Assembly: GCA_905178155.1 (NCBI GenBank)
Contig: CAJINV010000006.1
Coordinates: forward strand, 2,768,658-2,832,657
Direction of reading: 5' to 3'
Length of the DNA: 64,000 bases
Source: Amoebophrya sp. A120
Lineage: Eukaryota > Protista > Dinoflagellata
The notes beneath the pieces are model-generated. The model did not search any database, was not told where the DNA came from, and was given only the letters and a program-made list of their open reading frames with translations. The translations under genes and the position numbers were made by a program. Below are positions 14,914-41,941 of the stretch, piece after piece; position 1 is the stretch's first letter; the number at the start of each line of letters is the position of its first letter.

Positions 14914-17900
14914 ATGTCCTCCCCCGATGTGGAAATGGTTGGCTCGCAGAGCTCGGCGAGTCTGGAGTCCGTGGATAACAAGGAAAAGCCCTACGCAAAC
15001 GGCAAATCCGCCGCGGGGTCCACCGGAGGGACAACGAATAACGTCTTGAGCAATAACTCCACCACGGATCAAATCAATAAACTATCAAGTGTAAAAATGT
15101 CTGGGTCTGGAAGAATGCAACTTGTCATGCTAAATCTGAAACAATCAAGAATCTGTGTTGCATGTAACCAAAAGTCGTCCAGTTTTGACCAAGTCGGGAG
15201 GGGGTTTCTCATGCAGGATAGGCATGAGAGAGGTCGCACAGAATCTGTCATGCTAGGTCCTGCATTCCAGACCTCATGGGTCATGGAAAAGCTGCATGAC
15301 AAGTCGCTCATTCTTCCAGACCCAGACATTTTTACATTTGATATAAACCCTCTCCCGACAATGCTGATAGCGGCGACGATAATCGTCCAGAGAAAAACAA
15401 AGACGATCGCGACAAGGAAAAGTCTTCACGAAAATCGAGGTATCAAATGTAAAAATGTCTGGGTCTGGAAGAATGCATCTTGTCATGCTAAATCTGAAGC
15501 ATGCAAAAATCTGTGTTGCAGGATATACCAAAAGTCGTCCAGTTTTGACCAAGTCGGGAGGCAGGTTCTCATGCAGGATAGGCATGAGAAAGATCGCACA
15601 GAATCTGTCATGCTAGGTCCTGCATTCCAGACCTCATGGGTCATGAAAAAGCTGCATGACAAATCGCGCACTCTTCCAGACCCAGACACTTTTACATTTG
15701 ATACGAGGAAACGGTCCCGCGACCGAGACAGGGACCGAAAAGGTGGACATCACAACCGGAAGAGCCGCTCTAGAGACAGGAAAAAACGGAAGAGTAGGAG
15801 TCGGGATCGGGATAGAAATAAATCGAGGAGGAAGTCGAGAAGTAGAAGACGAGATCGCGATAATAATCGCAGGTCGAAGAACCGCAATAACAAGTCCGGG
15901 GACGGGAACGATATACAGGATCACTACGAGAACGTTTTGAGTTTAAGGGACATACAAGCGGATAGAAGTACCAACGACAGACGAGGCGGGGATAGTCATA
16001 GAGACCACCGGGACAGAAACAGGTCGATGTTTCAGGGGTCGATTTCCGGCGGGTTTTCCCAACACTTAGAGTCCCACGGCTACCCATCGGATAACAAGCA
16101 GAACTCCGCCTTGCGACATCTCCCCAGCCGGGAAAACCGGTACTCCGATGAACACAGAACAACAAACAGGTCGAACGGGCATAATTACGACAGAGACCGG
16201 GATAGAAGCAGGGACGACACGCAACACCGTGGTTCCCGGCATGAGAAACGAGATCGGGACGGGAATGTGATGCCGATCACCTTATGCATTGCAAAAGTAT
16301 CGTACTCGTATTGCAGTCATGCATTACAAATCTTTTTCTTAAGGGAAATCCGCATTACAAATTTTCTTCCTCATGCTGAGGAAATTTGTCATGCATTTAT
16401 ACGAGTACGATACTTTTGCAGTTCATACACCTCTCTCCGGGACAATGTCATGCACAACGCGAACACAAGTCGGTTGAATATCGGGAACATTTTGCAACAA
16501 ACGAAGATGTACCAAATGCAAAAATGTCTTGGTCTGGAAGAGTGCATGTTTGTCATGCTTGTCTGGCATGACTCTTAAAGCTGTCATGCACGTTGCTCAC
16601 GAGCCGCATTTTTCTGTCATGCGGAGACGCAGTTTGTCATGCAGATTAGGCAACACCTACAAGCTCAGAAATTTGTCATGCTGAGCCAGTACTTGTGGCC
16701 TCCTCATGCTACGCCACTCAGCATCACAAGTTTCCGGACCCAGACACTTTTGCATTTGATAAGATGTTGAAGATGGAGCGGGAGCGGTTATCGAAACAGC
16801 AGGTCGACTACATCGAGATGATCGCGTTCAGGAATCTATCCTGAGTAAAAACGTCCCCACACCATGGTCATGATGGGAAGTCTGCAACACAAATCCTCAA
16901 GTTTTGGGAGTTCTGCATGACAAGTTTCCATCTGCAGTGTAGTGCTGGCTAGCAAGGAAAGCCGCATGAGTAAGCCATTTTCTCATCCTGTTTACAGCAT
17001 TCCAAATGCCAAAACACGACTGGAAATGCCTCTCATGGAGATGCGCATTACAAATGTTCCTGACATTGCGCATTTGCATGACAACTCTGGGGTGGGGACG
17101 TTTTTACACAGGATAGAATCCGGAAAACAACCGGAATAAAAACGACCCCACAATCGACAAGCAGGAGTACTACAAGTGCCAGGTCGGGGAGAAGCTCGGC
17201 GATAACGGGGAGTTTGAAGCCGTGGAGCAGTTAGGAACCGGCGTTTATTCCTCAGTGTTCAAGTGTAAGAAGGTCGGAAGAGATAGACACAGAAACAACC
17301 GAGACAACTATCGGGGGAATAACCGGAGATATGATGACTGGGAGGACGATCGAGATTTCGTAGCAGTGAAAATCATCCGGAACGTGCGGGCGATGCAAAA
17401 CCAGGCCATGCGGGATATCCTGAGTAAAAACGTCCCCACCCCAGAGTCAAGATGAGGACTTTGCAACACAAACCTAGAAGTTTTGGGAGTCACGCATGAC
17501 AAGTTCCAGTCCGTCATGTAGTGCAGGTTGGCAAGGATAGCCGCATCATAAATCCATCTGCTTATGCTGTTTCCAGCATCACAAATTCCTAAACACAGTT
17601 GGAAATGCCTATCATGGGGATGCGCGTCACAAATGTTCCTGTCATTGCACATCTGCATGACAACTCTGGGGTGGGGACGTTTTTACCCAGGATACGGGAA
17701 ATTGAGAGGATGATGCGGATGAGCTCGGAGGGACCGCGGGTGGACCGGTTTGGGTCACAGTTTCTGATGTATTTGCACGAAAACAAACACTTTCGCCATC
17801 ACGACCTGCAGGCCATGGTCTTCGACCTGATGCGGCACGACTTGAGGAAAGCCAGCGATGTATCTTGTGTAAAAACGTTCCCACCCCATAGTCAAGGTGG

Positions 17901-19714
17901 TGAATCTGCAACACAAATCTCCAAGTTTTGGGAGTTGTGCATGACAAGCTTCCATCTGCAGTGTAGTGCTGGTTAGCAAGGGAGGCCGCTTGAGAAGCGC
18001 GCTTGTTCATCCTGGTTACAGCATTACAAATTCCAACACACGACCGGACACGCCTCTCATGGAGATGCGCATTACACATGTTGCTGTCATTGCGCACTTG
18101 CATGACAGCCCTGGGATGGAGACGTTTTTACATATGATACGACCGATATCTGAAGGGCCAAAGCGACTCCGCGAAGGGCTTTCCCCTCAGCACCGTGGCG
18201 CTGTATTGATGTTTTGCCATCTATAATTCGAGAAAGAGACTTTTTTTTTGAGAATACTTGTTTTGTTTATCATTGTAATCAAATTTCTTCGAGTTGTATC
18301 ACTTGAAATTTGATATTTCAGCTTGTTCACACGCTACCATGTCCTTTGTCATATTCAAGAAACCCTAGCACGAACAAACCTATTGACTACTAAACTAAAA
18401 ACTACAGGTGGGGTATCCAGATTCTGTATGGGCTTCGCGCCCTGAAGCGACAGGGCATCATCCAAGCGGATTTATCCTGTGCAAAAGTATCGTACTCGTA
18501 TTAATTGCATTTATGCATTACAAATCTAATTCCTAAGGCAAATCCGCATATACAAATTTAATTTGTAATGCTGAGCCAATTTGTATTATACTAGTACGTT
18601 ACTTTTGCAATTCATAGGATTTGAAGCCGGACAACGTTCTCCTCACCCAGGACAACTCAGTAGCCAAAATCGCCGATTTCGGTGCGGCTATGGACGAGGA
18701 GAAGACCATTCGTGACCGCAACATCCAGCCGCGGTACTACCGCGCACCAGAGGTTTTCCTCGGCCAGCGGTACGATTGCGGCATCGACATGTGGAGTTTC
18801 GGGTGCACGCTGTACGAGCTCGCGAAGGGGAAAATCCTGTTCACCGGGGCATCGGATAACAAGATGATCCAGAAGATGATGGATTTGTGCGGTCGGTTCC
18901 CACTGGAAATGGTCTGTCACGCGTACTGTCAGAAGAAAAACAAGGAACTGCAGAAGGAGCGAGAACAGAACGGGCAGTCCTCCGGGTCCGGCTCCGTTAC
19001 ACCGGCTTTCGTTGTCGGCGACTACGCGCACGAGCACTTCGACAAGAAAACCGGGGATTTTCTGCTCCACGACGAAGAAGCGCTGCAGAATATCCTGCGT
19101 GAAAACGTCCCTCACCCGATAGTCAAGTTCGGGGATTTGGCTACACAAATCAACAAGTTTAGGCTGTTGCGCATGACAAACCTGGGATCTACTTCGTAGT
19201 GTCATGGTTTTAAGGTATAATTAGTGCAGCCGCATGACAAATCGACCCTCTCATCCTGATTGCAGCATGAGAAGCTGCAGCCAAACGGCATCGGATAATG
19301 CCCTTCAACATGTTGGGGTCGCGCATGAGAAACATTCGTAGGCATGCCGTTTTGCATTACAACTCTCGGCTGGGGACGTTTTTACACAGGATACAGAACG
19401 AGATGGGTGACAAATCGATGGACCAGCCGACCAAGGTGAAATTATTGTCCGAAAAAGCGACCAAAATGGCCACGGCGCACCTGCGGATGAAGGATTTTGT
19501 GAAATATTTGGAGTTGGACAAGTGCAACGTGAACAAGGACCAGGACCGGAACATTAAGGGCAGTAAGGAACAAGTCTCCGCGTTTTCGGACCTGTTGCAG
19601 AAGTGCCTGCAGCTGGACCCGAAGAAGCGGGTGAACGCTGAGGAGGCCGTGAAACACGAATTTTTCTCCTTGTGTTTGAACGGGGAACGGAGGAAGGAAT
19701 TCATGGGGAAATAA
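14914..19714 (+). CDS. PRPF4B: PRP4-like CMGC Ser/Thr kinase with RS/RD-rich N-terminus, 9 introners + 1 GT-AG intron
   Basis: RS-rich tract, YYKCQVGEKL, LGTGVYSSVFKC, VAVKIIRN, IIQADLKPDNVL, IADFG, RYYRAPEVFLG, IDMWSFGCTLYELAKGKILFTG, LQLDPKKRV. Confidence 0.8.
15083..15343. mobile_element. Introner family A
   Basis: DR TAAAC. Confidence 0.92.
15441..15703. mobile_element. Introner family A
   Basis: DR CGAGG, close copy of 15083 and 43799. Confidence 0.92.
16283..16427. mobile_element. Introner family B
   Basis: DR CACCT. Confidence 0.9.
16510..16761. mobile_element. Introner family A (starts TAC)
   Basis: DR AGATG. Confidence 0.9.
16837..17115. mobile_element. Introner family C
   Basis: DR GAATC. 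Confidence 0.92.
17416..17694. mobile_element. Introner family C
   Basis: DR CGGGA. Confidence 0.92.
17861..18139. mobile_element. Introner family C
   Basis: DR CGATG/CGACC. Confidence 0.88.
18203..18407 (+). other. Canonical GT-AG intron
   Basis: Restores VALWGIQIL. Confidence 0.85.
18473..18616. mobile_element. Introner family B
   Basis: DR GGATT, splits the kinase catalytic loop ADLKPDN. Confidence 0.92.
19091..19393. mobile_element. Introner family C
   Basis: DR CAGAA. Confidence 0.9.
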
Positions 19715-23454: not shown

Positions 23455-26400
23455 ATGGCGCTTGCAGGAACGTTTTCCTTGAAAAAATCGGCTCAGTCGC
23501 CCCTCATGAGGATCCTGACCCGGTGTTTCCTCACCTCCGGTTTCATCCTCTTTTTCCCGCTACAACCGGGTGCTGTTTTCGGGAAGGCGGTCGGGAAGGA
23601 ATCAGGCGCTAAGGAAGCGGTATTGCAGACGAAGCGAGCACAACATGCGATGAAGCGGAGAGGGAACATCAAGCTTCAAAAAAATGCCGCTCGCAGAAGT
23701 ACTACCAAATCCGCAGCGCCGACGCACTTTTGGGCGGGGAACGAGCAAAACGCGAAAAATTTGTTTTTGCAAACCGACCGGGCAATTGTACGTATTCCCG
23801 CCGTCGCGGCGCATCAGCAGACTGAAGAAACCAAGCGAATAAATCTTCGCCGCGATGGCAGCGAAACAAGCAGAAGGCCATCAACTACTGCTGCAAGCGC
23901 GTTTGTCGAAAAACACGAACAGCGCCGTCAGCCTAGTCTCGAGGACGCTGGGGATTTTCTGAGTGGAGTGGGAAACCGGGTCCAGGACGTGAAAGAGGGT
24001 TACAACACACTGAAAGGGCATTTGGACACTGTCGGGAACCACCTCAATACCGCGAAGGAGCATGTGCAGAACGCGACAGAAACCGTCCAGCACCACTACA
24101 ACGCGGCGAAGGAAAATTTCCAAAACGCGACAGAGACTGTCCAGCACCACTACAACGCGGCGAAGAAGCATTTCCAAAACGCGACAGAAACCGTCCAGCA
24201 CCCGTACAACGCGGCGAAGGACACAGTCAACGTCGGCTTGCACCACCTGAATAACGCGAAAAACAAACTCGGGGCGCTGCCGTCGGGGGACAGGGAGTAT
24301 AACGTGGGACAACAGTTTCAGCGGTTGGGCCGACACCTCAGGTATCGTGCGGGCTTCCACTGCGGCACGGACGTTATCACGGAGACGCTGAAGGTAGGAT
24401 TCCAGAGGAAGGATAAACTCCTGGTCGACTTTGACAACAGTCCGGAGAGTCCGTTTCGGCAGCTCAGTGAGTTTGTCGACGACTGCAGCCAGCCTCGGCA
24501 CTTCGAAGACGGGTCGGAGCCCACTTGCAACGCGAAGCTATCAACTGCAAAAATGTCTGGGTCTGGAAACTTGTGATGCTGCGTTGGGAATAGTGAATGC
24601 TCTGTAATGCACAGGCAAGCATGAGAAATATCTGCGCTTCTTTTTGTTGCGTTTTTCGCATGACAAACTGCATTTTTGCATGACAGGCAAAAGGCGGGTC
24701 TCTTCTTGGACACGCATCACAAACTTTTTGGTCATGCCAGACAAGCATGACAAACCTCGCAATCTTCCAGACCTCCCAGACACTTTTGCATTTGATAGAC
24801 GCGGTGGGACCAAAACTTCTGTCCGGAACTGCAGGCCGCGTGCGACGTGGAAGAGGAGGCGGAGGAGCACCAGCAGGCTGGAGCGCAGCAGGAGCAGCAG
24901 TATCAGAGGAAAAGATCCCCCCTCCCCATATCAAAACGAAATTTCTGATGCTGGATTTGCGTACACAAATCAAGTCTGTCTTGCAGTAAGGGACTGCAAG
25001 CCCATATCAAGCCTAAGTAGAAGGGTTTTGACGTAGGCGCGCAGCATGGCAAATGTGTACTCTGTAGGCCCCATAGCATCACAAACCGCCTGCATGATGC
25101 GGCGGAGTCGCTGGATTGTCTTTCTTGCAAGACAGACACGATTTCTGACCCCAAATCAGCATCACAAATTTCGAAGCGCCTGCGGAGGCTTGCCTTCCCA
25201 GTGATAATGGACAATGGCAATGTCGGTGCGGTTGTTTTAGCATCACAAATTTCGAAAAGTATACCTTTTCGATATGGGGAGGGGGCATTTTTCCTTGCTA
25301 GAAGCAGATCAAGAAGATTATGCCGAACTGCCAGTATTTGGATGACGATGACAAGGCCCTGCTGCTGGAACTGATGAGCGGTGACGAAGCCGGCTCGGGC
25401 GAGGAACTGACCGTGGCGGACCTGTACGCAGCCTGTGAAAAGAAGGAGAAAACGCCTCTGACCGACTTCACGCTCAGCAACAAGGAATTCCACATGTGCG
25501 GACGAAAGATGTGCGAGACGAAAATCCGCTGCGATACTGATGACCTCCAGCATTTCCAGAATTATCCAGGGCAAATATGTCTGGGCCTGGAAAAGTGGAA
25601 CTTGTAATGCGCGTCTTACATTTATGAAAAATCTGTGTTGCATGAGAAGCAAAAGAGAAGCTTCCTTTGTCATGCAAAAACGCAATTTGTAATGCGTCCT
25701 AGGCATTAGCAGGCGTCTCAAAAACTTGTCATGCTTGGCTGCCATTGGAAGCGCTTCAATCATGCGCGATTCAGCATCACAAGTTTCCAGACCCAGACAT
25801 ATTTGCACTCGATAAGAATTTGTGGGAGCTAATTCTCGGGATGAACATGACGGACAAGCTATTACAATGAAGAATGCCCCCACCCGCGAATTTGCAAAAG
25901 TTTGTCATGCAAAGTTTCCAAGTGAAAGCTTTTGGTCTTGCAGGAAAGGATTGCGAGCCTTTCTGATGCAGAATCTAGGTGCGTAAACTGCCTTGTGCAT
26001 CACAGATCCGGCTGCTGTTGGGCGCCTTCGCAACACAAATTCGACCTATTCAGCATGGAAAATTTGTGATGCTGAGATATGCAAGAAGGGAAATGTTTCT
26101 ATTGGAAATGTTTGCAATACAAATGCTGCCAAGTGTGGGGTGGGAGCATTTTTCATTGTAATACAAGCCGCGAGAATTTTTGTCCGAAGCGACCTTCAAA
26201 GAGCACCGGGGGAACAATGTTAACGGGGAAGTGCGGTCGCCCGAGCAGCAGAAATATGAACTGCAAAAGTATCGTACTGCTACTAGTAGTAATTGCAATA
26301 CTAATTAGCTCAGCATGACAAAGGGAATTTGTCATGCTGTTTTGCCTTGGTATGGAGATTTGTAATGCATGATTGCGATTACTACGAGTACGATACTTTT

Positions 26401-29400
26401 GCACAGGATAAGAAAGCGCTCACTGTGACGGAATTGGAAAACTACTGTGATTCGAACAGCTACTATGACAGTGCACAACTCGACGTCCCCCTTGTTCTCA
26501 TTTCTCATGCAAAACACCAATTCCACACTTTCCCGCCTGTCACTGTTTTGCATGACAAGTGCTGGTAGTAGCCCGAATAACACTACAGTCCAGTGCAAAT
26601 TTGTGATGCAAGACCGGCACTGTTGCTGATGCTTGTGCTGCCCTTCATGATATACAAAGGAGAGGGAGGGGGACGAGTTGTGCACTGTCATAGCTACTTG
26701 GATGTGGTCGACGGTGAAGACGGCACGCACTCTTTCCACGATTACTCGTTCTTGGAGGAAAATGAAAAAGCGTCCAGTGCAGTGGAGGTGTCGGGCAAAG
26801 ATTCCGGCCAGCAGCAGCAGGCTGGAGCGCAGCAGGAGCAGCAGACCAAGAAGATTATGCCGCACTGCCAGTACTTGGACGACGATGACAGGGCCCTGCT
26901 GGCGGAACTGATGATATGGAAAGAATAAAAGTGTTTACAGTTACACATTGTGTTCAAGGCCAAGCAATTATGCAGACAAGCTCTGTCAACATGCCGGATA
27001 TTATGCATAGGAACCTCGTTGTTATTCATACGTACTTTCCCTACTTATGATATCAGCATTGCAAGTTTTCTCTATCATACAGAGAAAAATTGTGTTGCTG
27101 AATTGACAACAAGTGTTGACTAACCGCAAACACTTTTTTTCTATGTTGGATAGATGAGCAGTGACGAGGCCGGCTCGGGCGAGGAACTGACCGTGGCGGA
27201 CCTGTACGCAGCCTGTGCAAAGGAGGCAAGCATGCGCTGGGCTCTGACCTCGAGTGACCCACGGGACTATCAAAATGAAAAATCCCCCCTCCCCATATCA
27301 AAAGGAAATTTCTGATGCTGGATTTGCGTACACAAATTACATTTGTCTTGCAGGAAAGCACTGCACGCAGACAGCAAGCCTAAGGGGGGGCCTCTTGGTG
27401 TAGGGGCCTAGCATGGCAGACGTCTGCCCTGTAGCCTTGCAGCATTACAAACCGCCTCCATATCGCGGCGGACTCTCTGGATTTGCCTTCTGGCAAGACA
27501 GACAGGATTTGTGGCCACAAATCTGCATTACAAATTTTCGGAAGGACATGTTTTCAATATGGGGAGGGGGGATTTTTCTTTGCAATAGGGACGAGAGTGA
27601 CTTCACGCTCACCGACGAGGAATTCTACTTTTGCGGGCGAAAGCTCTGTATCAAATGCAAAAATGTCTGGGTCTGGAAGAATGTAGACTTGTCATGCAGA
27701 TTTTCCATGACCCATGAGGTCTGGAATGCGGGACTTAGCATGACAGACTCTGCGAGGTCTCTGCCATGCCTATTCTGCATGAGAAACTCCGGCCCAACTT
27801 GGTCAAAAGTGGACAGCTTTATGGCACTCATGCAACACAGATTTTTGCATGCTTCAGATTTACCATGACAAGTTGCAATCTTCCAGACCCAGACACTTTT
27901 GCAATTCATACTCTGCGAGACGAAAATCCACTGCGCGAAGTACCCGCTTTTTCAGAATTTGTGGAAGCTAATTCTGGGGAAGAACAAAATGGATCCGTTC
28001 AAAACCAATTATGTGGCCGAAACGACATTCAAGCAGCACCTGGCGAACAAAAATGCCGAGCACGGAGCATGGGCGAACGTAAAAGATGAAGATCTCGCAA
28101 GTTATCATGCAAACGGTGGAATCAACTCAGTTTGGTACCGTGGAAAAGAACTGTACCTGCGGAATATTAAAGTGAAAAATGCCCCCACCCCCAAAGTCGC
28201 AAAAACTTGTGATGCAAAGTTTCCAAATGAAAACTTTTTGTCATGCATGAAAGAAGTATGAATCTTTCTGATGCAGAGCCTAGGCGTGTATCGCATCGCT
28301 TGCATGACAAGCGCCACTCTTGCTGGGGTCTTTTGCAATACAAATTTTTGCTATTCACGATTGGAAATCTGTGATGCTGATAGATGCAAGGGGGCGAGTG
28401 TTTCATTTGGAAAGGTTTGCAATACAAATGCTCCCAAGTTCGGGGGTGGGGGCATTTTTCATTTTGATACGGAACAATGTCACCGGATTTTCGCCTCCGT
28501 ATGCCAGAGAAAAAATCAAAATTTGGTACCGTGCAGTACAATGTCCTCGATATTAGGTGACACAAGAAAACTGCCGATATTTTTGAGATGAAATTTTGCA
28601 GTGCAGCAGACTTAGTACTCACACGCTTAGTACAAGAGCCCTTCGGCTAGTAGAATCCGGTCTTGTGTTGACTACCTTCCACAACCACGCTAGATCTGGT
28701 TATAATTGGATATCTTGAGGAGACGTAGAAGATCGTGCACAGGCGTTCTTGGTCCAGGCTTGGAATTATGCAACAATTAGATGTCAACATGCGTTTTATG
28801 TACTTAGTACCCGGTCCATTTTCTGCATTTTTCCTTATTTGTCGCATAATGAGCAGCAGAAAACGAAGCTGACCTTGACCGAGTTGGAGGACTACTGTGA
28901 AACGAAGGATTATGGGAGTGTCAGGATTGAAATCGTCACAGTTGAAAGAATTTGTCATGCATAAAATGCAGCCCACAAAGTGCCTGCCTTGCAGAATAGG
29001 CAAGTGAGGCAGATTGTAAGCCTGTTGAGGGACCTCCTGTGAAGGCCGTCGCCTGAGGAGATCTCCCGGTCGTAACGTGGGGAGAAGCAGGCCGCATGCT
29101 TATCAGGGCAAGCGGTTAGTAGATCTGGTAGGTTGAAAGAGTGGCCCCAGTGAATGAGGGCCGCCGCCTCTCATGATGTCACCTAGTAGACCATATATAC
29201 GCGCTGGCCTTGTTGTTCTGCGGAGAGCTAGCAGCAAGCAGCTCCCTGGCCCATGCGCTTGCGCTGCTGCGCAGGTCCGCAACAAAAAGGCACGCCGCCG
29301 CTGTGCTGTTTGTTGCCTGCCGCTCGGGTGCCGCAGCTGCACCTCGCGCGTCCGCGGGACGCGACCGGGCAGCAAGCCGAGTGGCACCGCCGACGAGCGC

Positions 29401-30932
29401 AGCTGCGCTACCGTTAGGGGAGCGCAGCCACCCAGATGGCTGGCCACCCCACCCTCCCGGATGCCGCCCCTTATCCGAGCTCGGCCAAGCCCATACCGAG
29501 AATTATAGCGCCGACCGTTGATAGTGCGCGGCCACCCGGTTGGTCGGTACTATGAAGAGCGCGCCACGACAGGCGAGCCCTGTGGCACCACTGAAACGGC
29601 CACACAGCAACACACTGGCGGCGCACAACCGCCCACGAGTTGAGCGCCCCCAGACATGCAAATGCTTGCTGTGGCTACGCAGTGCAATTCCAAATCGGAC
29701 GAAAATCAACGGCAGTCGTGGGGAGGTGTTGGTGTTCGCGAGGCACTACGTCCGACGCGCCTCCGAGCCGTGAGGGCACTCCTAGGGATAGGAGAGAGGG
29801 ACCGAAAGAGCACCTACTCCGGGTGCGAGAGATCCTGCCGTGACAGATCCTACGATGCACTGAGATCCAATGGGCCCCTTGTGCGTGCGATGTTTGTGCA
29901 CAGTGGTCGGCATCACCTGTGGCTTCGATAATAATAATAATAAGCCTGTTGAGGGGTAGAAACTGAGGTGCTAAAGTAGCATGACAAAAGGCGTCTTCCT
30001 TACCCAAACAGCGTTACAAACTGGATTTCGGTTCTACCCAAATTTGTCATGCGCCACTTGGAACCTGGGTTAGAACTTTCATCCATTTTATGCATTACAA
30101 ATTCTTTCAACTTTGTCGATTTCAATCCTGCCACATCCATAAGGATTACTATGCTAGTGGACATCCATTCGAAGAAGTCCCTCTCTTCAGCAGGCACGTA
30201 GTAGCTTCTGCATGACAAAAATAAATCTAGGCACGACCCACTGTACTACTGCTGTTTGGAGTTCTTGTGCTATAGGTTGTCACGCATCACTGCTTAGGGT
30301 TAGGGCGAAAAGGCAGCCGGCAGAATTTAAGTACTTCTTGCAATTTCATCCCATGGAAATTATGATAGACGCAGATGACGAGTTGCTGGTAGTGGGAGTT
30401 CGAGTTCTTGTCCACTTTCATACTTGCGCAGATGTGGTCGATGGCGAGTTCCCGATGTGGGCTATCACGAGAGCGTTTATGGAAAGAAAAAGACTGTGGT
30501 CAACATTTAGTGTGAGAAGTCTGTTTGCGATATTAATGCAGGGTTTTGCATGTAGTTGACAAGGACAAGCCCAACTGTCAGCACTGTTATAATATTGCAG
30601 TTGTTCTTTGTAATAGTAATGCTAATGCCCTGACGCCGACATCACAAACATGTACATGATAGCCCTTTGTCGATGGTGAATTCAGCACGCACCATCGGCG
30701 CATGAAGAGTCTTTTGTGTCATGCAGAGGAAATTTGCTGTTGCTGTAGCGTATGTTCATGCAAAAAATCCACACGAGCACAGTTCTTTTATGGCATACCG
30801 GGGGAGGAAGAACAACCATCATCCAGTGCGGTGGAGGTGTTTGGACCGTTCTACCCGACGGAAGAAACAATGCGAAAATTTTCGAAACGCAGAAAATGGC
30901 CAGCGTCGTCCCAACAAGTATTAGATGCTTGA
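23455..30932 (+). CDS. Putative secreted/surface protein with 18-aa tandem repeats and a duplicated Cys-containing domain, 14 introners
   Basis: Hydrophobic N-terminal segment. Frame stays open across all 14 junctions. Two copies of QQAGAQQEQQxKKIMPxCQYLDDDDxALLxELMSxDEAGSGEELTVADLYAAC...CGRKxCETKIxC...QNLWxLILG...ELExYC...DVVDGE...SSAVEV. The 3' end is uncertain. Confidence 0.7.
24052..24222 (+). repeat. About 3 x 54-bp coding tandem repeat (AKEHVQNATETVQHHYNA)
   Basis: Visible in both DNA and protein. Confidence 0.9.
24539..24797. mobile_element. Introner family A (reverse orientation of the 130-382 type)
   Basis: DR GAAGC/GACGC. Confidence 0.9.
24901..25302. mobile_element. Introner family D with internal insertion, ends AGA
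   Basis: DR AGCAG. Confidence 0.88.
25563..25814. mobile_element. Introner family A
   Basis: DR AGAAT. Confidence 0.92.
25860..26163. mobile_element. Introner family H (TIR TATTACAATGAAAAATGCCCCCACCC)
   Basis: DR CAAGC. Confidence 0.9.
26255..26410. mobile_element. Introner family B
   Basis: DR AGAAA. Confidence 0.9.
26464..26692. mobile_element. Introner family E
   Basis: DR GCTAC. Confidence 0.92.
26915..27152. mobile_element. Introner, degenerate G-like
   Basis: DR GATGA. Confidence 0.88.
27268..27587. mobile_element. Introner family D
   Basis: DR GGGAC. Confidence 0.9.
27649..27910. mobile_element. Introner family A (reverse orientation of the 15441 type)
   Basis: DR CTCTG. Confidence 0.92.
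28165..28469. mobile_element. Introner family H
   Basis: DR CGGAA. Confidence 0.9.
28500..28848. mobile_element. Old degenerate introner
   Basis: TATGC...GCATA with weak TIR. DR decayed (CTCCG/ATGAG) but removing ATA+5 restores the frame. Confidence 0.65.
28911..30141. mobile_element. Introner family I (TIR TATGGATGTGTCAGGATTGAAATCG) interrupted by a retroelement
   Basis: DR AGGAT. Both halves align with intact copies at 51285 and 56637. Confidence 0.88.
29032..29940 (+). mobile_element. 5'-truncated non-LTR retroelement (LINE 3' end or SINE) nested in an introner
   Basis: 15-bp TSD TAAGCCTGTTGAGGG (29017-29031, 29941-29955), (TAA)n tail, GC-rich body. Confidence 0.8.
30150..30422. mobile_element. 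Old introner, E-like TIR
   Basis: TATGCTAGTGGACA...TGTCCACTTTCATA, DR decayed ATTAC/CTTGC. Confidence 0.72.
30478..30797. mobile_element. Old introner, G-like TIR
   Basis: DR lost (GCGTT/CCGGG), ATA+5 restores the frame. Confidence 0.68.
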
Positions 30933-32262
30933 TGCAGAAGTACGAATGAAAGAATCTAAAGATAAATTAATAAGCGAGATGTCAATGTCATGGGTGTCGT
31001 GGACATTCTATTTATGTGCGCTAGTACCAAGAGCAGCAATCGAAAATCGACGACGGGCGGATCTAGCGCTGGTTACAGCACTTGTCGACGGAGCAAGCAC
31101 ACGCCTGCCACACTCTTCCGACCTGCGGGCGTGCGGAATAGTCCCGGACCGTTCCGAACTCGTCGACCCACAAGCGAAGGCACACTCTACGAAGACAGTG
31201 TCCATAGTCGCCCACACAGACGTAGGCACGACATTAGCCTGCGAAATGGAGAAAATGGGCAAAGGTATCCCGGTACTGGCGGCAAAGACCAACGGCGCGC
31301 ACCTCGAGACCGAGGAAAGAGAGGAAGAGCAGCGCTTTGCAGCCTACTGCAACAACGCGATAGTGCTTATGGATTCCATAGCGTCTTGGCCTCAAACGGC
31401 CAAGGTCTGCTTCCGGCTAGAAGACTACCGCAGGCTCTGGATCAAAACACGGGGCCCACTGCGCAGGGGTCTAGGGATTGTGCTCGCGCTGGTAGAAAGA
31501 ATCGAAGCGGTGCAAAAGCTCGGACACGTGGTAATAAAGCAGTGTAAGTACGACGCGGACGAAGACAGATCATGGGTGACTGCCACACCGCCCCCCGTGA
31601 TCTCTACCGGTCTGACGGTAGTGAATGTAGCTGACCACGACTGCTACGCTGACTGGCCCGCTTTTGACTATGGTGAAGATGCCTTCAAGTTCGAACCGGT
31701 ACAGCGTTGGCCGGAAATGAGCAGGCGCGAGCGCACGGAATTCCTCACAGCAGCATTGCTAGGCAACCAGGAGCAAGCGCAAAACCTGAGCGAGGCGGCC
31801 GCACACGGCGCACAGGCAAGCAGCGGCATACTAGCACGGGTGCAGGAAAAACAGGCCAAAGGGGAAGCTCAGCCATGGTGGGAAGAAAATGCCGATCAGA
31901 TAAAAAACAAATTCCACCCGCAAGGCTGGGACCACCTTGACGAGGACGCGCTCGCAAAGTCCCTTAGCAAGATGCTGGAGGTGGACGAACCACCTAGCGC
32001 GTCCAGCTCATCCTCCTCGAGCTCGGGGCCCCCAGGCACGAAAGGGACAAGGAAAAACCGCAAACGGGCGCGGAGCAACTCGGGGGACTGGGGTGAACTT
32101 CGAAGTCCGGAACCAGCGACGCCAGGAAACGACCCAGCACCCGAGCAGCAGGCGGCACAGGAAACGCAGGAGAGCCGGGAAGAGAGCCCCAAGATAGGGT
32201 CGCTTTTCCGCGACTCGCCGGGATCCAAGTTCAGACGAGGACCATGGAAGTCGCTTTTCTGA
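30925..32262 (+). CDS. Intronless 445-codon ORF of unknown function, possibly from a mobile element
   Basis: 1.3-kb uninterrupted ORF with no introners and no recognisable domain, followed by about 1 kb of non-coding DNA. Confidence 0.4.
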   Translation: MLDAEVRMKESKDKLISEMSMSWVSWTFYLCALVPRAAIENRRRADLALVTALVDGASTRLPHSSDLRACGIVPDRSELVDPQAKAHSTKTVSIVAHTDVGTTLACEMEKMGKGIPVLAAKTNGAHLETEEREEEQRFAAYCNNAIVLMDSIASWPQTAKVCFRLEDYRRLWIKTRGPLRRGLGIVLALVERIEAVQKLGHVVIKQCKYDADEDRSWVTATPPPVISTGLTVVNVADHDCYADWPAFDYGEDAFKFEPVQRWPEMSRRERTEFLTAALLGNQEQAQNLSEAAAHGAQASSGILARVQEKQAKGEAQPWWEENADQIKNKFHPQGWDHLDEDALAKSLSKMLEVDEPPSASSSSSSSSGPPGTKGTRKNRKRARSNSGDWGELRSPEPATPGNDPAPEQQAAQETQESREESPKIGSLFRDSPGSKFRRGPWKSLF

Positions 32263-33398
32263 GCAAGCAACTTGTTCTACTTCAAAAAGTAAACCTCTTC
32301 CAAAAAGCTACATCTTCAAAAAAGACACTACTTCTACCGCAAAACAGACACTACTTCTTCCACTTCATGAAACAGGGAAGCGATACTGTTTTACCAAGGA
32401 AAGCCAAAGAGCAAAAGAAAAACATAAGGCACCAGAAAGGGACCTACAAGCAGCCGGGCGCAGTTGTTCTGTTCGGCAAGAACGAGCGAAAAACCCAAAG
32501 GGCAAAGCCCAGGAGCGAAAACAAAAAATGCGTGTCAACGCACATGGCGCGCCCGTCCCTCCTACTCGTGTCAACTTTCCCCCTGGCGCAAGGTGGGACC
32601 TTGTCGCCAGGAGTTCTCCTTGTCTGCGCCGTCGCCAGTTCCTGCCGCGTGCTTACGGGTATCCCTGAGTGAGCGAATGGCCACAATTTGCATAATGCGC
32701 GGCTCCACGGCGTGGGGTTGTGCGTGGCAAAAAACGGACTACTTTACATGTGTTTTTGTATGGAGCACTCGTCCGCCCTTTTGCTTTAGCCGAAAAGGCG
32801 AATGGCAGCGATTTGAGGGCCGCTCGTTAGCTCTATGCGCTAGTACGCAAGTAGGCAAGTGAGTCGCGCTGTCTCCGGGGGGCGTTCCCTGGTCTCACTT
32901 TACAACCAAAAACTTAGCAGGGAAAGGATCCAAGTGCCGGATTGGGAGGTCAGTGCGTGCTTCTTCTGGCCAAGCTCGTCCAGAAGTAATCACTGACTGT
33001 GGGACGTCGTTCATGTATGTGCTGCGTCATGGTGCACGCAGTGGGTCCGGCGCTCGAGCTATAGTGACCGAGCCGTGGTGGAGCTTAAGTGCTCCCCGCG
33101 CCGGACCTAAAAAACAGGGCTTATTGCCTCGGCTCGGTCGCTGATCAGATCCGCCCTACGCTTATGCAGAATGCTACAGTGTGTGCGTTTTTGGTTCCCC
33201 CCTGAACGACGTGTGTGAGAGTGAGGCCCACACCCAAGTCCGAAAAAACCTAGCCTCATAACAGCCGCGCCCTTATGGTATAGATCAACTGTTCGTCATA
33301 GAGGATCGGCGTTCAGCTGCTCTCGGGCTGGAGGAGGGAGTAGCACGCAGCAGTCCGCTAAAGGGCACACTGCCAACATCATCATCAAGAGCACAAGG

Positions 33399-36300
33399 AT
33401 GAAGTACAGAACAAGGCTTAACGATGAAGTCGAACAGACATAATTATTTGAAACCTCGCACCCAGTGAGCATTTGCACTTGGACATTGGTAGGTGCATGC
33501 TGGCTCTTTTCTGCAGGATAGTGCCGAAGAGAGCAGAGAAGGCAGCCACGCGGGAACACTCCACCACAGCCACGTCGTCGCACGAGGAGGTGGAGGAGGA
33601 CGCGCGGCAGGCCCGGGAAGAGGAAAAGCGGGAGGCTGAGGAGAGGGCCAAGGATGCAGCCGATACGACCGCAAGTGGGCAACAAGGCACCGCGGAGTCC
33701 TACTTGCAGATGTTTTCGAAGCTGTTTCACAGACAGAATGCGAACGGGGATGATGATGATGATGACGATGACGATGACCAGGACGATGCCGACGCCGGTA
33801 TAATCTGACATTTCGTAGTACTAGTACAAGTCGTTCCAGCTGTAATAACTTCTCCGCACGGAAAAAATGAACTAGAGCGAGAAAGGGGCTTTTTGGTCTT
33901 TGAGGTTGAGCACCATAAGGGCAATTGTTAAAAACAAATTGGATGACCATCTTGATGATCTTCTGCACATTTTCCCAAATTTCTCTATCAAAAAACAGAT
34001 GACGATGTAGTTGATGACGACGAGGACGACGGCAAAGAACCTGTTCAGCCGGTGCACGTGGCCGACCTGGTCGGCTTTACGGACAAATCCTACGGTGCTG
34101 CGGGCTTTCGCGAGAATTTCTTCGAGGAGTTCAATGTTACTGTAAGACCCGATGAACCTGTTCCCAAAGACAAGGCGTTGGCCGTCTGGACCGCGCTTGA
34201 GGCCGGTCTGGAGGCAGACGGCGTCGATGTTCCGGAGGAGGGGCAGGATGGGAAAGACTGGCCAAACAACCTGTACCAAGTCTACCTCAATTACACGTCG
34301 TTGGTGCCGGCTTCCTCTTATGCACTGCAAAAGTATCGTACTCGTAGTAATCGCTATCGTGCATGACAAATATCCCTTTTTAGGTAGATTAGCATTACAA
34401 GTTTCATTTTTCTTCTTGAAAAAATTTGTGATGCAGTTTATACTAGTACGATGGATGCTTTTGCAATGCATTCCTCTGACAACGACAAGACGTGGCGGGA
34501 AACGGTGGCGAAAGGGAAATCTTATGAAATGCAAAAGTGTCTGGGTCTGGAAGAATGCAAGTTTGTCATGCTTGTCTGGCATGACTCTTAAATCTGTCAT
34601 GCACATCACCAAAGAGCCCCACACCACTTTGCTGTCATGCAGAGACGTAGTTTGTCATGCAGAATAGGCAACACCTAGAAGCTCAGAAACTTGTCATGCT
34701 GAGCCAGCAATTGTGGCCTCCTCATGATACGCCACACAGCATCACAAGTTTCCAGACCCAGACATTTTTACATTTGATAAATCTGCAATCAAGACGATGG
34801 GAAAACTGGTGTGCGCAGCGGGAGCGGATGAACCGGAGAAATTGACCGAGGACATGAAGCTGTTCTGTAGCAGCGGATCGTGGCGTCACCCAGCAACAAC
34901 CTCTGCTCCGGTGCGAGACCTCCGGCCGGTTGACGGGTGGGAGCTAAATGAAATTCAGAAGAACGACAATAAAGAGGACCAGGCCGGGAATGACAACCAA
35001 GAGGACCAGACCTCCCACGAGATGAACAAGGCGGAGTATGTGAAAAATGTGGAAAAGGGCGATGTGTCTTTCCTTGGAGTACAGGCCAAGTTCGGCAGGG
35101 ACGAGGATGACGACGATGATAACGCCGATGGTGATCGCAATTTCAACGATGATGAAGGTGGCGAGAAACGTTTCGTGCCGGCAGAGTCTGTATCAAATGC
35201 AAATATGTATGGGTCTGGAACAAGGTTGCAACTTGTGATGCTGTGTTTGGATTCTAAAAAGATTTGGTTTGCATGACCAACAAGAGGCGTCCTGTTTGTG
35301 CTACGCGGGGAGGGCATTTGTCATGCCGAATAGGCATCAGGAAGCCTTCTAAAAATCTGTGGTGCTAAGTCATGCATGACAGGCATCGCGGGTCATGCGA
35401 AACATGCAGGACAAACCGTGCACTCTTCCAGACCCAGACATTTTTGCAATCCATAGTCTCGTCGTCCTGAGAACTCGACTAGCACTACTACGACGACCAC
35501 CACCAGTTCTACGACCATCACCCGTATCGAGTTTTCTGGTTGTTTTTTTTTTCTGAATCTATAGCATGATCATCAGAGCCTGTTTGCAATAGATCACGCC
35601 TCAAGAATCGTCGATAAGTTGGGAGTCTTGGCCAAATAAGTACGTGCTGCTACATCTTCAAAACAGGTCACCTCTGGTTCCAGTGCACGGACCAAATCCG
35701 GATCTACCTGGATCTATCCACTGCAAATAGATACCGTTGGATGTTGTCTGGAAGGCGAAGGATGCGAACTTGTGATGCGCATTTTGCAGCATAAAAAAAG
35801 GTGTCATGAATAGAATGGAAACCAAAAAGTTGCAGTGCGCATTGACATTATTGGCCACCCGCTCGCCAGCAATGTGAAAGAGGGGCTTTGTCATGTGCCG
35901 GATTACACATGAAGACGAGACCTTCTCAGGACCTGTGATCATCATGCTGGGGCGTGCATGGTTGACCTCCTGGATGGTCATGCCAAAGCTGCATCACAAG
36001 CCTTTGCATCCTTCCAGATCTAGGTCGATGTTTGCAGTTGATACCACCAAGGAGCGACCAGCAGTACGACTACCAGCACAACCACGACTATGCTGTGGAA
36101 AAGCGTCGTCCCGATAGTTAAGAATAAAGATGGGGACTTTGCATGCTACACAAACCGACCAGCTTTTGGCTGTCGCGCATGACAAGCTCGTGCTCGCAGT
36201 GCAATCGTGTGTACGTATCTAGTGCACCACCAGGTGCATCACAATTCGATCGTCTTGCCCTGATTGTAGCGTGGCAAACTGCCAGACAGCATTAAGAAAT

Positions 36301-36450
36301 GCTTCTCTTGGGCGGGCTGCGCATGGGAAACATTCGAGGCTTGTAGATTTTTAGCATCACAACTTTTGTTGGATAGGGACGCTTTTACACTGGATACCAA
36401 CTAGCACGACAACCGAGGAAAAGCCGGTCGAGGAGCCCGAGGACGACTGA
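33399..36450 (+). CDS. Acidic, Thr-rich protein of unknown function (5' end uncertain), 5 introners + 3 GT-AG introns
   Basis: Continuous spliced frame MKIVPKRAEK...poly-D...WPNNLYQVYLNY...STSTTTTTT...EEKPVEEPEDD*. TGA 36448-36450. Confidence 0.6.
33404..33516 (+). other. Canonical GT-AG intron
   Basis: AA|GTAC...CTGCAG|G. Confidence 0.55.
33798..33998 (+). other. Canonical GT-AG intron
   Basis: Joins two acidic exons in frame. Confidence 0.75.
34319..34472. mobile_element. Introner family B (ends ATT)
   Basis: DR CCTCT. Confidence 0.88.
34523..34779. mobile_element. Introner family A
   Basis: DR AATCT. Confidence 0.9.
35191..35455. mobile_element. Introner family A
   Basis: DR GTCTG/GTCTC. 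Confidence 0.9.
35524..35666 (+). other. Canonical GT-AG intron
   Basis: C|GTATCG...AAACAG|GT, frame restored. Confidence 0.65.
35715..36043. mobile_element. Introner, degenerate A-like
   Basis: DR decayed GGATC/CCACC. Confidence 0.75.
36089..36396. mobile_element. Introner family C, degenerate
   Basis: DR ACGAC/CCAAC. Confidence 0.78.
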
Positions 36451-37442
36451 GGGGGACTATCAAGACAGCGACGCTTCTTGGACGGACGAGGTGACTGTTT
36501 GATTGCATGAGGACAATTTTTCTGCACCACAGATTTTTTACTGCAACACATACACAACTGGATTTTGTTCATTTTTTTACTTGATCTATTTTGATTTTAC
36601 ATTGCAATATACATTTGCTCTACTGTTTGACGCTACTTTTTCATGTTAACATTTGGATTTGAAATTCCAGTTCTCAATTGCAAGGTCATTCATTTATTTC
36701 ACTTTTGAATTTCTCTTTCTTGTGACATTAAGTATAACTTGTTGTATTCTTTCACGTTGTATGATCATGATCATCCAGGCCGTCGTCGAGGAGCCTATCA
36801 ATTCTACGCAAAAAAATTCCTGTACAAAGATGAAAGTTGACGTAAAATAAGTTCATTGGATGAGGAGACCTCCGTGTGACTGCTTGTAAATGTTTTTGGG
36901 AAAAAATAGATGATACTGTACACACATTCATAAGTTTTGCTGGAAAGAAAGAATAAGAGCCCAACGCTAGTACTCAAAGTTGCTTGGGAAAAAGACGAGC
37001 CGTCGGCAACAGCAGCTGCAGATTTTGGTGTCCGTTTTCTTCAGATGTGATCGCGTGTTTCATCAGGAACAAAAGCGCAACCGATGTTTGCAGTGGTTGA
37101 AGAAGGTCTTCCAGCGGTGCAGATACAGTTATACTCAGCATGCTCAGGAGGCCGCAAATTAGTAAACAAAGACAAGAACTCGTTTTCCTCTCGCCGTGGC
37201 TCTGAAACAAGACAATCTGCTTGTGTTGACAGGAGGATGACGGCTTTCAACAAGATCTTTTACGAACATCAATTATGTCGTGAATGCGCATAATCTATTC
37301 CAAAATAGTACCTGTGTCAGAGGTCGCTTATACGCCTGTGTGTCTTGACGCAGGTCGCGTTTAAGATTTCTTGCACTCATTGCCATTTTTAGAGACGAAC
37401 CTGATTTGATTCTTTCACCCAAGAGCAGAGAAAAAAGCGAAA

Positions 37443-38353
37443 ATGTCCCCCTCTCCCTCGAATAAACGCGAGGACGCAGCGTCTTCTGTAAATCTGACGA
37501 AGGTCACCTCGAAACTGCAAGTTGAAGGTGAGAAAACGTCTTCTATCGAGGTGCACAGTCTTCCCTTCCACATTGAATACGACGGTCCTGCACCCGTGTC
37601 CGCGTACTTTATTCAGGAGAAGGATAAAGAAGTGGGTAGTTGTACTAGTGCAGCGCCTGCCACTGGAGCTGCTTCAGATGGCAAATCTTCAAAAAACCCG
37701 AAGAAAATCGCCTCGTTCCGTGGCCGGGAACTGAAAGGGGAGGAGTTTTCTTTTTCGGGAGGTGCAGCAAACACGAAAAACGATAAAGCATCTTCTCCCG
37801 GCGCACAATATCACAAGGAAAAATCCCCCCTCCCCATATCAAAAGGAAGTTTCTGATGCTGGATTTGCGTATACAAATCAGGTCTGTCTTGCAGTAGAGG
37901 AAAGCAGGCTCCTGCCAAGCCTGAGTAGAGAGCTTGTGGCCTAGGCGCTTAGCATGAGACACGTCTACGCTGTAGGCCCAACAGCATCACAAACCGCCTG
38001 CATAATGCGGCAGAGCCTGTGGAGTTGTCTTCTTGCAAGACAGACGTGATTTGTGGTCTCAAATCAGCAAGACAAATTTTCGCAAACATACCTTTTCGAT
38101 ATGGGGAGGGGGGATTTTTCCCCTCAATACACAAGTGCAAGAACTTCCAGGATCTTCCACGAACAACACAAGCGCAGCTGCTTTTGTCATGCGGAAAATG
38201 AAAAACGAGGACACCGAGGAGCTGGAGTGGCGGTTGAGTGACCGCGTGTCGGACATAACCGTCTGGAATGCGGGGCGAGAAATTTCGGAGGCAGATGAGT
38301 TTCCGCAGTTGATGCAATGGATGAACATTATTGCGCCGGCACTGCACACCTAA
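37443..38353 (+). CDS. RNASEH2C: Ribonuclease H2 subunit C, 1 introner
   Basis: VHSLPFHIEYDGPAPVSAYF, ASFRGRELKG, ITVWN and C-terminal WMNIIAPALH. Confidence 0.85.
37809..38129. mobile_element. Introner family D
   Basis: DR CACAA. Confidence 0.92.
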
Positions 38354-38987
38354 CGATCACCTAAACAGTCTTTTTTCCGGGTCCTCGAGAATGGTGATTC
38401 TATGGACGAGTACGCGCTGCGCTATGGATATGGTGCAGCTATCTATCTTTTAGGAACACGCCTCGTCAGAACTGCGAGGTGGACCACTCGAGCGATGGTA
38501 CACGACGAGGTAATTATTACCTGAAGACCACACCAGACAACTGTAGTAGGTACATAGGTGCTGTGTGCTGAAAGAGCTTCGTCCATAAAAAAGATCTTGA
38601 GGCACGTACAACTGCAACAACAGACAAATATCGAAGTCGATGTTCTTGTTCCCTTCGGCACTTTGATCACTATCGTTGGGTTTCGATCGAAAGGGTAGAG
38701 AGGTAAAACGAGAACAGCTGGACCCTGGATGCACTAAGTAGAGACTGCGGACGCACCACGACCAGAAAGCCCCCCGTAGATGAGCTGTCGTTTGCGTGCG
38801 CTGTCGTGGCAAAACATGTGTATGCTTCTTACATGAATTCGGGTGAGTGAGACTACTTAGAGGGGACAAAGGAGTGGTCGAAAAATCCGCTTTCACGTTG
38901 ACCAGGTTTGGGCATTAAAATGGATGAGTCTGAAGATTCCAAGAATTGTTCTATCTTTGACAAGAAACGGTCGTGAAACAAAAAATC

Positions 38988-41111: not shown

Positions 41112-41941
41112 CAAGGATAGAAGGGAAGAAAAGCAGCTTCCTGCTGTACATGCTGCTGGGTTCTTTTGCTACTGCTTGGCGACGTGTACTATCACAGACT
41201 GGCAGGAGAACCATTCTATCGTCGACCGCTCCTGTCGTTCGCACTGTAAACACATCATATGAGATGGAGATCTGCTTCTAGTAGTCCAAGAAACAATGTG
41301 ATGGGAACAGAATTATGATCAGCGGGGAAGATGATGAGGATGAGGATGGCCACGTAAAGGGCCGGCCTGGGCAGAGGCGGTGTTCTGAATAAAGTACAAC
41401 TGCAATGAATTGCTGTATTTCATAATTCGAGGCACAACAACTGCTTCTGCTACAGCCTGTCGACGCTCTTCGTGATTGATACAATTTTTGATTATCAGCC
41501 AGTTTCGGTATCGGTTACCAGATCATCGCTCGTGTAGACTGCATGGGTTTATTTCGTACTTGGAATTATATGATTCATTTCGCTTTCGGTCGCAGCACCA
41601 GTCTGTCCATTTTAACCGTCGGGTTTTCCTCCTCGTAGCCGTGTGCTAGGTAGCCCGTATAATGTTGGTTTTGGATCTCTTGTTCCTACGCAACCAAAAA
41701 TCGAATGTGTATGCGCAATGTCGTTGGTCAAAAAATTGCGTAACTTTCATGCGTTTCGAAGATATCCATGCAGCTCTAAAACGGATTGTTAGAGTGCTGT
41801 GATTGTTTTATCAAACCAAGTTCGTTTTTTGGATTCAATATGTTCGCTGGTGGTTCGTTTGAGTAAATAAATCGCTTTGCGCTGTCCTCGAAAACCCAGA
41901 GGACCTCCAGTGCTGGAAGTATAGATGAAGTAAAGCAAGAA

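What the first reader, a model, noticed from the sequence alone, without database searches (positions are those of the whole stretch)
24870..30850. A duplicated protein domain shows filled and empty sites, so the 5-bp repeat is a TSD
Seen: domain copy 1 has introners at AGCAG (24901) and AGAAT (25563) where copy 2 reads through with one repeat (GAGCAGCAGACCAAG near 26835, CAGAATTTGTGG near 27953). Copy 2 has introners at GATGA (26915) and CTCTG (27649) where copy 1 is continuous. Inference: all were gained by insertion after the domain duplication, so intron gain is fast relative to the divergence of these still highly similar exons.
Basis: partly seen in the sequence, partly recalled or inferred. 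Interest (0 to 1): 0.75.

Follow-up and report, generated by a model that had tools for sequence, protein, structure and literature searches.

The report
Transposon introns in a duplicated domain
In a gene of the marine parasite Amoebophrya, two copies of one protein region carry small inverted-repeat inserts at mostly different places, each flanked by a 5-base repeat that is present only once in the other copy, so the repeat is most likely an insertion scar of an already known class of transposon-like introns, but the copies are too old and too unevenly similar to show that these introns were gained fast.

Summary
The window is Amoebophrya sp. A120 (gene GSA120T00020723001). All 4 named sites are filled in one copy and continuous in the other; the empty site equals the repeat at 3 of 4 (CTCTG faces ATGTG). 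The two copies hold 13 TAT...ATA elements, not 4. Across the window, 39 of 53 elements chosen on inverted repeats alone have an exact 5-base repeat, none of 3, 4 or 6-10 bases. RNA-type contigs and the annotated protein remove element plus 5 bases. A 5-bp target-site duplication is well supported and largely in print. But the copies are old: dS 0.58 outside one 55-codon tract at 0.09, probably homogenised later. One intron position is shared by both copies, three copy-2 elements are decayed enough to predate the duplication, and the GATGA element looks older than its tract. Gain after duplication is likely for most elements, not shown for all. A by-product: decayed repeats fit one splice register (1 base before, 4 after the element) whatever the repeat sequence.

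The parts
23455..36450 (+). Host gene GSA120T00020723001 (CAD7953874.1), 1232 aa, no known family; 21 junctions against the annotated protein
   Evidence: Pfam and NCBIfam give only sub-threshold hits
24871..26796 (+). Domain copy 1 (aa 385-570), 5 elements, all with 5/5 repeats
26815..30845 (+). Domain copy 2 (aa 577-807), 8 elements, 3 with decayed repeats
24871..25442 (+). Highly similar 55-codon tract, copy 1 side (94% nt, dS 0.09); partner 26815-27222
24539..24797 (+). Element upstream of the duplication, repeat GAAGC/GACGC (4/5)
24901..25302 (+). Element, repeat AGCAG; ends AGA; 81-base internal insertion; empty site 26840-26844
   Evidence: removal shown by the annotated protein only
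25563..25814 (+). Element, repeat AGAAT; empty site 27954-27958
   Evidence: contig joint 25557>25815; hairpin z -6.1
25860..26163 (+). Element, repeat CAAGC; in a segment that does not align between copies
26255..26410 (+). Element, repeat AGAAA; empty site 28858-28862 (a fifth exact filled/empty pair, the fourth with an identical empty site)
26464..26692 (+). Element, repeat GCTAC, young-looking; same position as 30150 in copy 2
26915..27152 (+). Element, repeat GATGA; decayed (69% to nearest relative in the window, 11 gaps); empty site 25373-25377
   Evidence: removal shown by the annotated protein only
27268..27587 (+). Element, repeat GGGAC; in a copy-2-specific segment
27649..27910 (+). 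Element, repeat CTCTG; empty site ATGTG 25509-25513
28165..28469 (+). Element, repeat CGGAA; empty site GGGAA in copy 1
28500..28848 (+). Old element, repeat decayed (CTCCG/ATGAG), still skipped; empty site CCGAG in copy 1
28911..30141 (+). Element, repeat AGGAT, with a 909-base nested insert (29032-29940) that has an (AAT)n tail and a 15-base duplication
30146..30148 (+). Inferred 3-base exon between two elements
   Evidence: the contig joint 28912>30427 gives the same letters as two separate removals
30150..30422 (+). Old element, repeat decayed (ATTAC/CTTGC); same position as 26464 in copy 1
30478..30797 (+). Old element, repeat decayed (GCGTT/CCGGG); fixes the cut after repeat position 4
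   Evidence: contig joint 30476>30802 with no ambiguity

Best explanation
The two copies of this protein region carry 13 short TAT...ATA inverted-repeat elements of the known Amoebophrya A120 introner class, each flanked by a 5-base repeat that is single at the matching empty site and so is most likely a target-site duplication, and most of them were likely inserted after an old duplication whose first 55 codons were probably homogenised later. Steps: (1, inferred) a DDE transposase or integrase-like enzyme acting in trans cuts the target with a 5-base stagger and inserts a non-autonomous element in either orientation; repair duplicates the 5 bases. (2, shown) the transcript loses exactly element plus 5 bases, restoring the original coding sequence, in both orientations and also when the repeat has decayed or 0.9 kb has been nested inside. 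(3, shown for the informative junctions, inferred as a rule) the cut lies 1 base before the 5' TAT and 4 bases after the 3' ATA, so the intron begins N-TAT and ends in four arbitrary target bases. (4, inferred) the spliceosome reads the element's ends, not GT-AG: TAT stands at +2 to +4 as in the host's ordinary GTAT donors, and the first A of ATA, at -7, may be the branch point. (5, inferred) short gene conversion or unequal crossing-over made the 5' tract young-looking, so exon identity does not date the insertions.
For: Fixed repeat length: 39 of 53 elements, none at 3, 4, 6-10. Empty sites: of 9 alignable intron positions 8 are filled in one copy only, with no extra bases in the other; 4 of these 8 equal the repeat exactly. 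Removal: 10 contig joints cover 11 of the 14 elements in 24539-30797 in both X3 and X4 (15 of 49 joints were listed); a model built by removing all 14 equals the annotated protein for 818 residues. Register: all 26 resolved element junctions of 31 in two annotated proteins allow a cut after repeat position 4, and 4 is the only value common to the 7 restrictive ones; all 9 predominant A120 non-canonical end pairs in Table S4 of PMC7789003 have T at +2; all 3 ordinary GT-AG introns met start GTAT and have A at -7. Both orientations: 27649 against 15083/15441 and 26255 against 16283/18473 are opposite and all removed. Independent insertion: same-family elements in the two copies are not each other's nearest relatives. 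Timing: perfect-repeat clock; dS heterogeneity.
Against: No orthologue or allele polarises any site. One position is filled in both copies (chance about 0.05). Three copy-2 elements have 8 of 15 repeat bases mismatched (95% interval 0.27-0.79), as much as or more than the synonymous difference between copies (0.40). Only one junction (30478) fixes the register by itself; contigs X3/X4 are only guessed to be RNA and may not be independent of the annotation. Joints for 24539, 24901 and 26915 were not among those listed. No transposase was identified here, and PMC7789003 found none in A120. Element ages rest on relatives in 64 kb only.
Confidence: 0.78

Rival explanations
1. One reading: one recent duplication, every element gained afterwards, so gain is fast relative to exon divergence.
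For: The first 55 codons are 94% identical (dS 0.09) and hold two single-copy elements; the 24901 element is 87-89% identical to one at 60050, compatible with insertion after that tract formed.
Against: The other 101 codons have dS 0.58 and large indels; heterogeneity p 0.002-0.003. The GATGA element has about 11 gaps against its relatives where most of them differ by 2-4, and a weak hairpin (z -2.1 against -6.1). Shared position 26464/30150; three decayed elements.
Confidence: 0.1
2. Turnover: the old elements (28500, 30150, 30478, perhaps 26915) predate the duplication; copy 1 arose from, or was overwritten by, a spliced cDNA or lost them by slippage between the repeats, and was then re-invaded, once at the same position.
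For: All 3 decayed-repeat elements and the decayed GATGA element lie in copy 2, while all 5 in copy 1 look young; their repeat decay (0.53) is at or above the copy divergence; the shared position holds a young element in copy 1 and an old one in copy 2 whose ends resemble it.
Against: The asymmetry is not significant (p 0.10-0.20). A profile of the 26464 family (3 members) finds no match in 30150, and its best local score is to another family. This cannot explain the perfect-repeat elements.
Confidence: 0.25
3. The 5-base repeat is not an insertion scar but a splicing signal kept by selection, or the product of reverse splicing of an excised intron RNA.
For: Removal takes exactly one repeat's length with the element; no transposase is known in A120 (PMC7789003).
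Against: The repeat has any sequence; elements with 2/5 or 3/5 repeats are still skipped; reverse splicing would not add 5 bases nor give both orientations (the expectation is from general knowledge).
Confidence: 0.07

Closest known systems
Amoebophrya A120 introner elements (Farhat et al. 2021, PMC7789003; sections 10-12 read whole, other passages, supplement passages and part 3 of 5; figures not seen)
   Same: Same genome and class: ends start with TAT followed by an A-run, inverted repeats, direct repeats at the borders, non-canonical ends; the Fig. S19 legend already says 'Direct repeats of 5 bp'.
   Different: That paper gives 3-5 nt repeats and variable splice positions, and argues against general transposase mobilisation. 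Here the repeat is uniformly 5 bases, empty paralogous sites are shown, and one splice register fits.
A120 introner families of Gozashti et al. 2025 (PMC12130899; passages, and 41 of 58 A120 rows of supplementary file 8)
   Same: Most families are classed as TIR DNA elements; family 38 is noted as 'Ginger, 5-bp TSD, TA/TA Termini'; family 19 has 5 by manual inspection.
   Different: The automated values in the column I read as TSD length run from 2 to 6 or are missing, with several different splice-site mechanisms called; the window suggests one length and one register for all TAT families. I did not map my elements to their family numbers.
Polarella glacialis introner class 12 (Roy et al., bioRxiv 10.1101/2020.10.14.339549; passages)
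   Same: 5-base TSD; with an NNAGG target the donor is the last TSD base plus the first element base and the acceptor is TSD positions 3-4: the same register.
   Different: Class 12 needs AG and G in the target to make canonical sites; the A120 elements use that register with any target sequence.
Micromonas and Aureococcus introners; Fritillaria and euglenid non-canonical introns (review PMC11282704 and PMC9860276; passages)
   Same: MITE-like TIR elements with a TSD, removed so that the coding sequence is restored.
   Different: The algal ones carry or co-opt canonical splice sites; Fritillaria has preferred AG-AC/AG-AT ends; euglenid ones use other conserved stem positions.

Membership tests
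Amoebophrya A120 introner elements | Lies in the A120 genome | tested here: met
   Two window exons match A120 proteins at 100%
Amoebophrya A120 introner elements | Terminal inverted repeat starting TAT, A-run about 10 bases in | tested here: met
   24901 has a decayed 3' end (AGA)
Amoebophrya A120 introner elements | Direct repeat of 3-5 nt at the borders | tested here: met
   5/5 in 10 of 13 elements in the duplication; 39 of 53 in the window
Amoebophrya A120 introner elements | Repeated elsewhere in the genome | tested here: met
   9 of 13 have a relative at 78-89% in the window; 26915 and 30478 match one family profile weakly; 28500 and 30150 have no clear relative
Amoebophrya A120 introner elements | Removed from the transcript, mostly at non-GT-AG ends | tested here: met
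   Contig joints for 11 of 14 elements; all 14 absent from the annotated protein; none of the 14 reads GT-AG at the fitted register
Non-autonomous TIR DNA transposon (MITE) | Fixed-length target-site duplication with a single copy at the empty site | tested here: met
   (paralogous empty sites, not alleles)
Non-autonomous TIR DNA transposon (MITE) | Insertion in either orientation | tested here: met
Non-autonomous TIR DNA transposon (MITE) | Cognate autonomous element with a transposase | tested here: inconclusive
   The only long ORF inside inverted repeats (30925-32262) has no Pfam, NCBIfam or PDB match; the whole genome is not held
Ginger transposons | Integrase-like transposase; TG...CA ends (recalled) | tested here: not met
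   Ends are TA...TA and no transposase was found; PMC12130899 also says family 38 lacks Ginger termini. Works like an integrase-type element at most
Spliceosomal intron | Lariat with a branch A; dependence on U2, U5, U6 | not testable with these tools
   Only indirect: T at +2 and A at -7 shared with the 3 ordinary introns

The most novel reading that the evidence does not exclude
A120's 'variable' non-canonical intron ends are one rule: every TAT...ATA element makes a 5-base duplication and is cut out at a fixed distance from its own ends (1 base before, 4 after) regardless of target sequence, by a spliceosome that needs only +2 U and a branch A at -7. Any insertion into coding DNA is then a ready-made intron, each element is removed on its own (a 3-base exon lies between two), and genes turn such introns over, with loss and re-gain at the same site.
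Probability: 0.5. Interest if true: 0.65.

Novelty: new member of a known kind. Interest (0 to 1): 0.36.

Why it matters
The class, its 5-base repeats and their reading as target-site duplications are in print for this very genome, so the headline is confirmation: a within-gene filled/empty test that the five literature searches did not show for Amoebophrya. It strengthens DNA transposition against the 2021 paper's doubt. The rate claim fails as stated and is a caution: repeated domains can be homogenised in patches, so their identity does not date introns. The useful lead is the fixed splice register, which makes the open question of how A120 splices about 65% non-canonical introns with no detected U1 directly testable from existing RNA reads at elements whose two repeats differ.

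Tried and rejected
Whole genome: none held, so element ages rest on the window. Orthologues: two word-index searches and one full HMMER search returned only the A120 protein itself; the Atlas gave no usable hit for the domain; a blank is not evidence of absence. No RNA holder is listed on record; X3 and X4 are guesses. X10 (raw RNA reads, same species label) laid 207 reads, all partial and nearly all on one element family, none on exons; X9 did not cover exon 1: no strain comparison was possible. Read-level joints for 24539, 24901 and 26915 were not obtained. Idea that the same family order in both copies (24901/27268, 25563/27649, 25860/28165) means duplicated or locally hopped elements: rejected, each has a closer relative elsewhere in the window. 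Idea that 26464 and 30150 are one ancestral element: inconclusive (end similarity z 3-5 against shuffles, no profile match). Canonical GT-AG removal of the 24901 element: no in-frame GT/GC-AG option. One search used a wrong start and a poor global alignment; dS values come from the 8 gap-free blocks (156 codons; unaligned segments left out). In one search the automatic orientation of families B and F and one boundary (60050) were wrong; those divergences were dropped. Host protein function: no family above threshold. The Atlas look-up of the 445-aa ORF did not complete. Place and sequence look-ups of earlier findings were empty.
Full report
Identity. An exon of the region matches one protein among 90 candidates, at 100%: Amoebophrya sp. 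A120 GSA120T00020723001 / CAD7953874.1, 1232 aa. A neighbouring kinase exon also matches an A120 protein. The element ends (TAT, then an A-run) are those described for A120 introners in PMC7789003, section 11. The host protein has no family hit above threshold and no relative was found.

Observation. The four named elements have exact 5-base flanking repeats, and the other copy is continuous and of the same length at each. Three empty sites equal the repeat; CTCTG faces ATGTG. The duplication spans aa 385-570 (24871-26796) and aa 577-807 (26815-30845) of one gene and holds 13 elements, 5 in copy 1 and 8 in copy 2. Ten lie in alignable blocks, at 9 positions: 8 filled in one copy only, 1 filled in both (26464 and 30150). 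Three lie in segments that do not align. Of the 8 single-copy sites, 4 have an identical empty 5-mer (AGCAG, AGAAT, AGAAA, GATGA), and the rest differ at 1 to 4 bases.

Is the repeat a target-site duplication? Of 53 elements selected in the window on inverted-repeat match alone, 39 have an exact 5-base repeat and none an exact repeat of 3, 4 or 6-10 bases; the match rate is 0.87-0.92 in the five positions and 0.13-0.30 beside them; the 5-mer has any sequence. Elements of one family occur in both orientations relative to the gene. Same-family elements in the two copies are not sisters: 24901 is nearest to 60050 (87%), 25860 to 61917 (84%), 25563 to 45859 (89%), 27649 to 43799 (87%). Fixed length, free sequence, single copy at the empty site and both orientations are what insertion with a staggered cut predicts (established knowledge of DDE transposons). 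The enzyme is not identified.

Removal. Contigs of X3 and X4 (guessed RNA) skip element plus 5 bases at 25563, 25860, 26255, 26464, 27268, 27649, 28165, 28500 and 30478, and skip 28911 and 30150 together (15 of 49 joints listed). Removing all 14 elements in 24539-30797 in this way gives an open frame identical to the annotated protein for 818 residues. The contigs may be the data behind that annotation, so the two are not counted as independent. Elements with 2/5 or 3/5 repeats and one with a 0.9-kb nested insert are still skipped, so neither the repeat nor the interior is required.

Splice register. Perfect repeats hide the cut; decayed ones show it. Against two annotated proteins, 31 junctions were mapped: 26 resolved elements, 3 ordinary GT-AG introns, 2 unresolved. 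All 26 allow a cut after repeat position 4; 7 restrict the range, and 4 is their only common value; 30478 fixes it alone, also in the contigs. The intron is then one target base, the element, and four target bases. It predicts first dinucleotides GT, AT, CT or TT and free last ones; all 9 predominant A120 non-canonical pairs in Table S4 of PMC7789003 are of that form. The 3 ordinary introns all start GTAT and have A at -7, as the elements do. My inference is that the element's TAT mimics donor positions +2 to +4 and the acceptor is set by distance from the element's end; a branch at the -7 A is a guess. Polarella class 12 uses the same register but needs an NNAGG target. Two separate removals around a 3-base exon (30146-30148) give the same letters as the 1514-base skip.

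Timing. On 156 gap-free codons dS is 0.36 overall, 0.09 (bootstrap 0-0.23) in the first 55 and 0.58 (0.34-0.97) in the other 101; Fisher p 0.003, breakpoint permutation p 0.002. The copies are therefore old, with a tract that was likely homogenised later; inside it the differences are patchy (0 of 29, 7 of 70, 3 of 66 bases). Ten of 13 elements have perfect repeats (0 of 50 bases differ; upper bound 0.058). Eight perfect repeats outside the tract would be expected with probability 2e-5 (1e-3 at the low dS bound) if as old as the duplication and unselected, so these were likely gained afterwards, and long afterwards. For the two sites in the tract the clock says nothing (0.3-0.6). The 24901 element is compatible with insertion after the tract formed. 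The GATGA element is not obviously so: 69% to its nearest relative in the window with 11 gaps, an insertion in one arm, hairpin z -2.1 against -6.1 for 25563, and few contigs at 88% or more over it, though the low depth is also seen over 25860 and a young copy of an unsampled subfamily is not excluded. Elements 28500, 30150 and 30478 have 8 of 15 repeat bases mismatched and may predate the duplication, in which case copy 1 lost them. Their confinement to copy 2 is not significant (p 0.10-0.20), and the shared position has about 0.05 chance under uniform insertion.

What is known. PMC7789003 describes the class in this genome, with 3-5 nt repeats, a figure legend showing 5 bp, ongoing spread, and no transposase in A120. 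The review PMC11282704 calls the repeats TSDs. PMC12130899 lists 58 A120 families, mostly TIR DNA, and notes '5-bp TSD, TA/TA Termini' for family 38 (41 of 58 rows seen). PMC9860276 uses an intron-less orthologue for another species. Searches for Amoebophrya with introner, target site duplication, or non-canonical introns and splicing listed 12, 4 and 5 papers; in the passages I read none shows paralogous empty sites or a single register for A120. Figures were not available.

Verdict. Observation confirmed. TSD reading supported and mostly in print. 'All gained after the duplication' is likely for 8-9 of 13 elements and open for the rest. 'Fast relative to still similar exons' is not supported. 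Interest 0.36; the fixed-register reading would deserve 0.65 if it holds genome-wide.

Noticed in passing
window 30880-33524: A 2645-base annotated intron of the same gene has decayed inverted arms (30889-30917 and 33486-33514), obeys the +4 rule at its 3' end, and holds a 445-codon open frame (30925-32262) with no Pfam, NCBIfam or PDB match; a nested insert or a candidate long element.
   Followed up: partly
window 29017-29955: A 909-base GC-rich insert with an (AAT)n tail and a 15-base duplication, retroposon-like, nested in a 307-base element; contigs of other copies lack it and it is multi-copy in the runs.
   Followed up: partly
window 25156-25253: 81-base insertion inside the 24901 element, bracketed by a repeat of about 17 bases.
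   Followed up: no
window 24025-24221: Three 54-base (18-residue) tandem repeats in exon 1 of the host gene; the protein starts with a hydrophobic stretch that may be a signal or anchor (by eye).
   Followed up: no
window 28049-28164: About 40 codons present in copy 2 only, bounded by similar short sequences; may be a deletion between microhomologies in copy 1.
   Followed up: no
window 14827-19700: Kinase gene (P0002, 781 aa; looks like PRP4 kinase, recalled) with 9 elements and 1 ordinary intron; one element has a CGAGG repeat and so reads GT-AG at the fitted register.
   Followed up: partly
whole window: About 64 elements, one per kb, in at least 8 families by eye; the closest pair (15441 and 43799) is about 95% identical.
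   Followed up: partly
run X10 on window 27826-27910: Raw RNA reads under the same species label hold a relative of the 27649 family at about 85-95% with other flanks, but no exon reads: the family may be shared with another strain.
   Followed up: no
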